From the NCBI GenBank assembly GCA_964016885.1, contig OZ024755.1, forward strand, positions 26,412,001 through 26,476,000: DNA of 64,000 nt, read 5' to 3'. This DNA is from Eledone cirrhosa. Taxonomy: Eukaryota. The notes under the pieces are model-generated. The model was not told where the DNA came from. It saw only the letters and a list, made by a program, of their open reading frames with translations, and did not search any database. The position numbers and the translations under genes were made by a program. The stretch's first letter is position 1. Every line of letters starts with the position of its first letter. Positions 53,662-54,185 of this stretch are shown here, one piece after another.

Positions 53662-53667
<6 letters not shown>

Positions 53668-54185
53668 TAATAAAAACAATGAATAAAAACAAAGAAACAG
53701 TCCTTTATATTAAAAAATTCATCATTTTACGATCGTTTCTAGGATATATATGTGTGTGTTGGTATGTATATCATATAGATCTATGTAAAAGTTTTACAAA
53801 CTGTCAGAGGGAATATACATACCTAAACATATATATGCTGTCTTCAGAAATAATTTGATTATTTCTGAAGACAGCATATATATGTGTAGGTATGTATATT
53901 GCCTCTGATAGTTTGTAAATCTTTTACGTAGATCTATATGATATACATACCAACACACACATATATATCCTAGAAACGATCGTAAAATGATGAATTTTTT
54001 AATATAAGGAACTGTTTCTTTGTTTTTATTCATTGTTTTTATTAATTTATCTTGACTCTGTTTTCCTGTGTTTTACATCGAAAAAATTTTGAATACATCT
54101 TCTCTTTTCATGATATTTGGATTACATTGAGTTCTTCATACGGATTGGACACTACCGTATATTTTGGTAGATTTATCTACACATA
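53662..54185 (+). mobile_element. Fold-back mini-PLE: palindrome 53662-54050 plus tail; long-helix-II HHR at 53861-53988(+) with mirror copy
   Basis: ~190-bp arms, 3-nt loop at 53855-53857; AUUU-CUGAAGA-[~100 nt]-GAAAC-GAUC-GUA-AAAU. Confidence 0.85.

What the first reader, a model, noticed from the sequence alone, without database searches (positions are those of the whole stretch)
53662..54185. 389-bp palindrome hiding a hammerhead with a ~100-nt helix II
Seen: CUGAAGA at 53865 and GAAAC-GAUC-GUA at 53973 lie ~100 nt apart. The intervening sequence self-pairs (atatatatgtgt/acacatatatat; ggtatgtatat/atatacatacc) using microsatellite-like sequence, and helix I is AUUU/AAAU. The fold-back point lies only a few nt 5' of the ribozyme. 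Standard descriptors with short helix-II limits would miss it. Arms differ at several sites, so the structure is old and probably real.
Basis: partly seen in the sequence, partly recalled or inferred. Interest (0 to 1): 0.8.

Follow-up and report, generated by a model that had tools for sequence, protein, structure and literature searches.

The report
Penelope-element stub with long-armed hammerhead
This DNA palindrome is a leftover end-piece of a very abundant Penelope-like jumping gene, an arrangement already well known, but the self-cutting "hammerhead" RNA motif it carries has an unusually long (about 100-base) middle arm that the whole family appears to keep and that standard ribozyme searches miss.

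Summary
Arms 53662-53854 and 53858-54050 differ at 7 of 193 sites. Each arm carries a type I hammerhead: CUGAAGA, a 101-nt helix II (35 predicted pairs, z -3.9), GAAA, a palindromic 8-nt helix III, GUA and a 7-bp helix I. No such motif arose in 20,000 shuffles of the element.

The palindrome itself is ordinary. It is a head-to-head insertion of the 3' end of a high-copy Penelope-like (PLE) family into a (TA)n run, with a tail on one arm only. Three other such insertions lie in this window. Public reads show the family tens of thousands of times deeper than unique flank (at least several hundred copies), with fold-backs recurring at 53858-62.

The long helix II is a family trait. All 5 major polymorphisms inside the ribozyme keep the fold, but none is a two-sided change. 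Cleavage is untested, and no autonomous parent was found. In this palindromic copy a read-through RNA would pair arm to arm and lock the ribozyme off.

Verdict: a new structural variant of the known PLE dimer-type hammerhead.

The parts
53630..53661 (.). (TA)n run abutting the 3' end of the inverted copy (target microsatellite)
   Evidence: sequence
53662..53854 (-). inverted, tail-less copy of the element's 3' end (193 nt), ending at the family's short 3' end
   Evidence: 24 X1 contigs leave the element at the equivalent base 54050 into (AT)n (table 7)
53721..53854 (-). mirror hammerhead (core at 53847, cleavage triplet ending 53728); two arm-specific changes break helix II pairs
53855..53857 (.). 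3-nt spacer, head-to-head junction; fold-back hot spot at 53858-62 in other copies
   Evidence: 26 of 29 opposite-strand X15 reads among the 15 of 16 joints shown
53858..53864 (+). helix I, 5' strand (pairs with 53985-53991)
53865..53871 (+). hammerhead core CUGAAGA
53872..53972 (+). helix II, 101 nt, 35 predicted pairs, C.A mismatch at its foot, built of AT/GT and AC/AT microsatellite-like inverted repeats
   Evidence: z -3.9; family depth and variants
53973..53983 (+). core GAAA and self-complementary helix III octamer (53976-53983), dimer type
   Evidence: self-duplex -10.0 kcal/mol
53984..53984 (+). predicted cleavage nucleotide (H17): A here, U in 32-53% of family depth
   Evidence: cleavage not tested
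53985..53991 (+). helix I, 3' strand; family variant 53989 G>A turns U.G into U-A
53992..54050 (+). U-rich 3' region up to the short 3' end
54051..54181 (+). 131-nt tail present only on the forward copy, ending at the family's long 3' end
   Evidence: 783 X15 reads agree (0.96) on the same end followed by (TA)n (table 7)
54182..54197 (.). (TA)n run abutting the long 3' end

Best explanation
The 520-bp unit 53662-54181 is one insertion of a high-copy Penelope-like retroelement family: a forward, 5'-truncated 3' end (pseudo-LTR region plus tail) joined head to head to an inverted, tail-less copy, inside a (TA)n run. SHOWN: palindrome, two defined 3' ends, (TA)n flanks, high copy number, recurring fold-backs at the ribozyme's 5' edge, and a family that continues upstream in other copies. 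INFERRED: a PLE RT-endonuclease supplied in trans nicks (TA)n and primes cDNA at two internal start sites (hence the tail on one arm only). The two halves are then joined at a short natural quasi-palindrome just 5' of helix I. Each copy carries the type I hammerhead usual for PLE ends, but helix II is 101 nt long. INFERRED: in family transcripts two motifs pair through the palindromic helix III, perhaps with protein help, and cut after the GUH at 53984. The long arm acts as an ordinary helix II extended far from the core, and the replicating family has kept its pairing. This genomic copy is most likely inert, because a read-through RNA folds into a 193-bp hairpin. Odds: palindrome real 0.93; PLE-derived 0.85; fold maintained in the family 0.75; measurable cleavage as a dimer or with protein 0.55.
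For: Anatomy matches published PLE insertions: inverted 5'-truncated copy, tail at one end, (TA)n target, palindromes at head-to-head junctions (PMC8557442; PMC3846280). The same anatomy sits at 39769-40828 around a GIY-YIG-like C-terminal fragment, and at 31162-31452 and 50270-50521. Motif beyond chance. Palindromic helix III and an unpaired foot of helix II are PLE hammerhead traits: PMC4209133, and File S2 of PMC8557442 lists U.U feet and one C.A foot. Depth in X1 is 99,000-665,000 over the element against 6.49 on unique flank; X15 has no depth on unique flank. All 5 major family polymorphisms within 53858-53991 fall in loops, keep a pair or keep H17; chance about 0.006-0.02 if independent. 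The 2 left-arm-only changes inside the motif both break pairs, as neutral decay would. The only helix-shortening joint shown is a 46-nt skip in 4 X15 reads. Two RT start sites explain tails in vitro (PMC11167929).
Against: No ORF or autonomous parent is linked to this family; the PLE assignment rests on anatomy and motif. No two-sided compensatory change was seen, and no alignment of full copies could be made (0 family hits in three collections). One search showed only 40 of 85 variant rows, so minority changes in the core or stems may be hidden. No single listed contig spans both core halves. About half of the copies that hold the 3' core half have a helix-II interior that does not align (1095 X15 reads loose before 53957), so their arm length is unknown. 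The canonical G10.1-C11.1 pair is absent. Even alone, the right arm is not predicted to form helix I (p about 4e-7), and the hammerhead-constrained fold is 3.2 kcal/mol above the free fold. The tail (131 nt) is longer than the 30-40 nt usually described. The exact junction of this copy was not crossed by the laid reference.
Confidence: 0.65

Rival explanations
1. Same PLE origin, but the long arm is a passenger. A hairpin of microsatellite-like sequence arose once in loop II of a master copy (by fold-back or insertion), the ribozyme became slow or dead, and the family spread anyway because cleavage is not needed.
For: Hammerhead mutants did not affect insertion by a PLE in vitro (PMC11167929). 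Naiad PLEs thrive without canonical hammerheads (PMC8557442). Only 5 polymorphisms support the fold, none two-sided. The monomer fold prefers an inactive pairing.
Against: The major variants spare core, helix I and helix II pairs, while the downstream part varies at about 22 shown positions. A second family in the window keeps a 36-nt helix II with 4 of 4 changes pair-compatible, although that test is not significant by shuffling.
Confidence: 0.2
2. A non-LTR retrozyme: a tandemly repeated or circular-RNA element whose monomer was copied into an inverted pair.
For: Retrozymes carry type I hammerheads with palindromic helix III and are proposed to derive from PLE ends (10.64898/2026.07.22.740005).
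Against: No tandem unit here. No tail-to-head joint among the 15 of 16 joints shown. Ends are fixed at two sites followed by (TA)n.
Confidence: 0.06
3. A MITE or fold-back DNA transposon (or a SINE) in which the hammerhead letters are a coincidence.
For: Long inverted repeat, no coding capacity, high copy number.
Against: Most copies are not palindromic and extend upstream (553 X15 reads). The inverted arms are unequal. The motif had 0 of 20,000 chance hits, and four other families in the window carry the same motif type.
Confidence: 0.05
4. The palindrome is an assembly or read fold-back artefact on top of an ordinary single copy.
For: Fold-back chimeras form at short inverted repeats (own knowledge). 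The exact junction of this copy is not listed.
Against: The arms differ at 7 sites. The inverted arm stops at the family's own short 3' end and runs into (TA)n. Similar junctions occur in an X1 contig at depth 14.6 and in raw reads of another sample. Three more such structures lie in the window.
Confidence: 0.04

Closest known systems
Minimal and near-minimal type I hammerheads of metazoan Penelope-like elements (Cervera and de la Pena 2014, PMC4209133)
   Same: CUGANGA/GAAA core, NUH site, palindromic helix III for dimer cleavage, position near the element's 3' end, pairs of motifs on opposite strands 100-700 bp apart
   Different: Helix II there is 6-8 bp with G10.1-C11.1; here it is about 35 bp over 101 nt with a C.A foot; helix I is 7 bp against 4-5
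Hydra-clade PLE hammerheads and PLE-X1 motifs (Craig et al. 2021, PMC8557442, File S2)
   Same: (TA)n target, unpaired foot of helix II (U.U in many rows, C.A in PLE-X1_cBra), short helix III, site about 100-200 nt from the 3' end
   Different: The longest core-to-core span among the 34 rows is about 54 nt (counted by eye); this one is 101. No sequence word of this family was found in that supplement; clade not determined
Inverted pseudo-LTR insertion unit of endonuclease-bearing PLEs (Arkhipova et al. 2013, PMC3846280; Frangione et al. 2024, PMC11167929)
   Same: Head-to-head inverted copy, palindrome at the junction, optional tail on one copy
   Different: No ORF in this copy; tail 131 nt against 30-40 nt; target duplication not readable in (TA)n
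Discontinuous type III hammerhead of mammalian Clec2 3' UTRs (as described in PMC6155905)
   Same: Core halves separated by a long insert that ordinary descriptors miss
   Different: There the insert (150-1500 nt) is in helix I of a type III motif in a host gene; here it is a fully paired helix II of a type I motif in a mobile element
Non-LTR retrozymes (10.64898/2026.07.22.740005)
   Same: Non-coding, high copy, type I hammerhead, PLE-related
   Different: Defined by tandem units; this copy is an inverted pair with two fixed 3' ends

Membership tests
Type I hammerhead ribozyme | Core CUGANGA, GAAA and NUH in order | tested here: met
   53865, 53973, 53982-84
Type I hammerhead ribozyme | Helix I closing the motif from both open ends | tested here: met
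   7 bp can pair; variant U.G to U-A; not favoured in the monomer ensemble
Type I hammerhead ribozyme | Helix II between the core halves | tested here: met
   35 predicted pairs, z -3.9
Type I hammerhead ribozyme | R10.1-Y11.1 pair at the foot of helix II (usual, not universal) | tested here: not met
   C.A here; unpaired feet occur in listed PLE motifs and U.U in active ones (PMC3088659), so this lowers expected speed more than membership
Type I hammerhead ribozyme | Match to an Rfam hammerhead model | tested here: not met
   No hit at gathering score or at E up to 10; the short-armed PLE motifs in the window are missed too
Type I hammerhead ribozyme | Self-cleavage after H17 | not testable with these tools
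   Needs a bench assay or RNA end mapping
Type I hammerhead ribozyme | Covariation of helices across copies | tested here: inconclusive
   5 of 5 major polymorphisms compatible, none two-sided; 45 of 85 variant rows hidden
PLE dimer-type hammerhead | Short, palindromic helix III | tested here: met
   8-nt perfect palindrome, self-duplex -10.0 kcal/mol
Penelope-like element insertion | Inverted 5'-truncated copy joined head to head | tested here: met
Penelope-like element insertion | Tail on one end only (two 3' ends) | tested here: met
   Ends at 54050 and 54181, both seen in other copies; tail longer than usual
Penelope-like element insertion | Microsatellite (TA)n target, as in Hydra and Naiad clades | tested here: met
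Penelope-like element insertion | RT plus GIY-YIG ORF in full-length members of the same family | not testable with these tools
   No genome held; none in this copy; upstream known only as a 30-letter read consensus
Non-LTR retrozyme | Head-to-tail tandem units each with a hammerhead | tested here: not met
MITE / fold-back DNA transposon | Terminal inverted repeats shared by most copies, fixed target duplication | tested here: not met
   Most copies extend upstream without folding back

The most novel reading that the evidence does not exclude
This is an active hammerhead whose ~100-nt helix II is a selected, functional arm (for example a handle for the element's RT, or a switch that keeps the monomer off until two RNAs pair). 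It would be the extreme of a series in this lineage (spans of 11, 13, 36, 48, 58 and 101 nt in one 64-kb window). Long-armed hammerheads would then be a large class hidden from descriptor searches, and might account for some Penelope-like families reported as lacking a ribozyme or holding only a half core.
Probability: 0.3. Interest if true: 0.62.

Novelty: new variant of a known kind. Interest (0 to 1): 0.4.

Why it matters
Genome-wide ribozyme counts rely on descriptors that cap helix II; one PLE study allowed 7-17 nt between the core halves and flagged 35-50 nt cases as half cores. A high-copy family with a 101-nt paired helix II would show that such caps hide real motifs. It would also give a natural test of whether PLE hammerheads are under selection to cleave, which is still open. 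The recurring fold-back at the ribozyme's 5' edge and the two 3' ends are a small natural data set on how PLE inverted insertions form. The palindrome and the presence of a hammerhead are not news.

Tried and rejected
Own genome not held, so no genome-wide copy set. Family patterns in metagenome, genome and viral contigs: 0 hits. The single hit (L001) lies inside a long bacterial ORF, folds no better than shuffles (z -1.4) and was rejected as chance. Rfam: nothing at gathering score; the microRNA-like matches only reflect the long hairpin. No RNA holder listed. My first reading, that 53858 is the family's fixed 5' end, was rejected: the laid reference began at 53855, and the loose letters of X1 and X15 agree with each other at 18 of 23 places (by eye), so the family continues upstream. 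The published Naiad consensus ends read do not resemble the element by eye, and short family words were absent from that supplement. No further copy of the family's upstream or tail motif lies in the window. Pfam gave nothing for the neighbouring endonuclease fragment. Look-ups of earlier findings by place and by sequence were empty. Lunse et al. 2017 on PLE dimer hammerheads was not held.

Full report
Setting. The window is AT-rich, microsatellite-laden eukaryotic DNA. Its repeats look cephalopod-like to me; that is recall, not a test. No genome is held.

The observation. The palindrome has arms 53662-53854 and 53858-54050, a 3-nt spacer and 7 mismatches in 193 nt. The right arm reads: helix I 5' strand 53858-64, CUGAAGA 53865-71, 101 nt, GAAA 53973-76, a perfect 8-nt palindrome 53976-83, A at 53984, helix I 3' strand 53985-91. 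The left arm carries the mirror motif on the minus strand. The 101 nt fold into one hairpin of 35 pairs (-29.6 kcal/mol; z -3.9; 2 of 500 shuffles as stable; left arm z -3.8, 1 of 500). A descriptor needing both core halves, an 8-nt palindrome, H and 4 or more pairs of helix I found 9 sites in the window. It found none in 100 shuffles of the non-microsatellite sequence and none in 20,000 shuffles of the element. I wrote the descriptor after seeing the motif, but it follows the published PLE pattern with helix II relaxed. Rfam finds nothing at gathering score and no hammerhead at E up to 10.

What the element is. The inverted arm ends in a (TA)n run; the forward arm runs 131 nt further and also ends in (TA)n. 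Papers on Penelope-like elements describe this unit: an inverted 5'-truncated copy, a tail on one end, (TA)n targets (PMC8557442) and palindromes at head-to-head junctions (PMC3846280). The tail corresponds to two RT start sites in vitro (PMC11167929). The window holds three more such units. At 39769-40828 an inverted copy (90.5% identical) and a tailed forward copy flank a 136-aa fragment; Pfam gave no hit, but the ESM Atlas places it with GIY-YIG-labelled clusters at 0.95 (a lead). At 31162-31452 a palindrome carries the U3-A8 core variant described for PLE motifs. At 50270-50521 an inverted partial copy precedes a forward copy. Hammerhead spans in these and other repeats are 11, 13, 36, 48 and 58 nt.

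The family. I laid 53855-54810 on 4 of the 17 listed runs at 80% likeness. In X1, probably the source sample, summed contig depth is 99,000-665,000 over the ten bins of 53855-54174 and 6.49 on unique flank. That is a ratio of 15,000-102,000, or 490-3,300 if divided by 31 for contig overlap. The tool warns that this is no copy number, so I claim only several hundred to tens of thousands of copies. X15, raw DNA reads of another sample with the same species label, covers the element 630-2,760 deep per bin and the unique flank not at all. X6 (another organism label) holds contigs that tile 53858-53986 with 1-7 differences each. Both 3' ends recur: 24 X1 contigs go from 54050 into (AT)n, and 783 X15 reads agree on the long end. 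Upstream of 53858, 553 X15 reads and 12 X1 contigs carry loose letters whose consensuses agree at 18 of 23 places by eye, so the family is longer than this stub. That consensus forms a short quasi-palindrome with the first bases of helix I. Among the 15 of 16 joints shown, 26 of 29 opposite-strand X15 reads turn at 53858-62 in four junction forms, and one X1 contig does so at depth 14.6. Joints upstream of 53855 were invisible, library chimeras are possible, and this copy's exact junction is not listed.

Is the long arm kept? Depth over the arm's interior (220,000-320,000) is of the same order as over the 5' core (384,000), and about half of that over the 3' core (640,000-665,000). A second subfamily differs at 53984, 53989, 53995 and by an insertion after 53997; 1095 X15 reads are loose before 53957, so its arm interior is diverged and its length unknown. 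The only arm-shortening joint shown skips 46 nt in 4 reads. Of the 40 variant rows shown (85 exist), six lie in 53858-53991. One (53928) is a near-private change of this copy. The other five are family polymorphisms: three in loops, one at H17 (A to U, allowed) and one that turns U.G into U-A in helix I. A random change would be compatible with probability 0.36-0.47, so five in five has a chance of 0.006-0.02 if independent. The two left-arm-only changes in the motif both break pairs. Against this: no change is two-sided, hidden rows may include core or stem changes, an insertion after 53886 in 71 X15 reads falls in a stem, and no listed contig spans both core halves. In X1 the rows shown account for all C>T, T>C and G>C places counted in the run table, and none is in the core or helix III; 13 other X1 places are hidden (my tally). 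A second family, with a 36-nt arm, keeps pairing in 4 of 4 changes among 3 copies, but this does not exceed the shuffle control.

How it would work. As a monomer the motif can form only two pairs of helix III, and the free fold pairs the core halves with each other; the catalytic arrangement is 3.2 kcal/mol higher. In the 53858-54180 RNA helix II forms (p 0.98) but helix I does not (p about 4e-7). The palindromic octamer gives a -10.0 kcal/mol duplex with a second molecule, the known dimer route (PMC4209133; PMC6765202). PLE motifs cleave slowly even as dimers, and one needed its protein. The C.A foot of helix II departs from the canonical pair but is listed for one PLE motif, and U.U feet are common. 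In this copy a read-through transcript pairs arm to arm (-300 kcal/mol; p 0.999) and abolishes both helices, so the locus is most likely an inert product of insertion. At 53901 and 53920 the two arms carry different family alleles, which fits two template molecules; this is inference.

Comparison and novelty. Everything but the arm length is published. The longest span among 34 rows of File S2 in PMC8557442 is about 54 nt; 'long' helix II in viral type I motifs means 6-8 bp; the known discontinuous hammerhead has its insert in helix I. Seven library searches showed no report of a ~100-nt helix II in a PLE. The library lacks most subscription papers, Lunse et al. 2017 was not held, and Repbase and Dfam were not available, so the family may already be annotated. 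Earlier AI notes describe palindromic PLE stubs in other genomes; they agree but are unchecked and are not support.

What I read. PMC4209133: parts 1-2 of 4 of the text, not its supplements (descriptor and alignments may bear on arm lengths). PMC8557442: passages, supplement searches, and supplement parts 2 and 24 of 59. PMC11167929: passages and the second half of the main text. 10.64898/2026.07.22.740005: part 1 of 5. PMC6765202, PMC13725137, PMC10085705, PMC3846280, PMC13282606, PMC6155905, PMC3088659: passages only. Others: search listings only.

Verdict. A real, ordinary PLE-type inverted insertion carrying a hammerhead variant with an unusually long, apparently conserved helix II. New variant of a known kind; interest 0.4.

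Noticed in passing
39769-40828: PLE-type unit with a GIY-YIG-like C-terminal fragment (40114-40524), an inverted copy, hammerheads at 39833(-) and 40694(+) with an 11-nt helix II, and a ~70-nt tail on the forward copy only.
   Followed up: partly
31162-31452: Another head-to-head palindrome (94.5%, 2-nt spacer) with hammerheads of the U3-A8 core variant at 31347(+) and 31268(-), a tail on one arm and (TA)n flanks.
   Followed up: partly
13150-13657, 50179-50521, 59261-59424: Short family ending at (TA)n with a hammerhead of 36-nt helix II and 8-bp helix I; one tandem pair, one copy with an inverted partial copy and a broken core.
   Followed up: partly
25962(-) and 18971(+): Single hammerhead-like motifs with palindromic helix III and helix II spans of 48 and 58 nt.
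   Followed up: no
27136-28728: A 530-aa stop-free frame that reads like the C-terminal part of a Tx1/L1-type LINE reverse transcriptase (recalled resemblance).
   Followed up: no
11307-11914, 19167-19610, 22195-22819, 30155-30344, 46545-46640: A ~190-200 bp SINE-like repeat in many copies, once as a 207-bp tandem.
   Followed up: no
54164-54181: The family's long 3' end is a small hairpin directly before (TA)n; a possible RT start signal.
   Followed up: no
PMC8557442 supplement part 24: Near the 3' ends of two published cephalopod Naiad consensuses, one of them marked 'HHR_half_core', the GUA triplet, GAAAC and CUGAUGA appear in a non-circularly permuted order with plausible pairings, by eye; this may be a permuted hammerhead of the kind in PMC10085705.
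   Followed up: no
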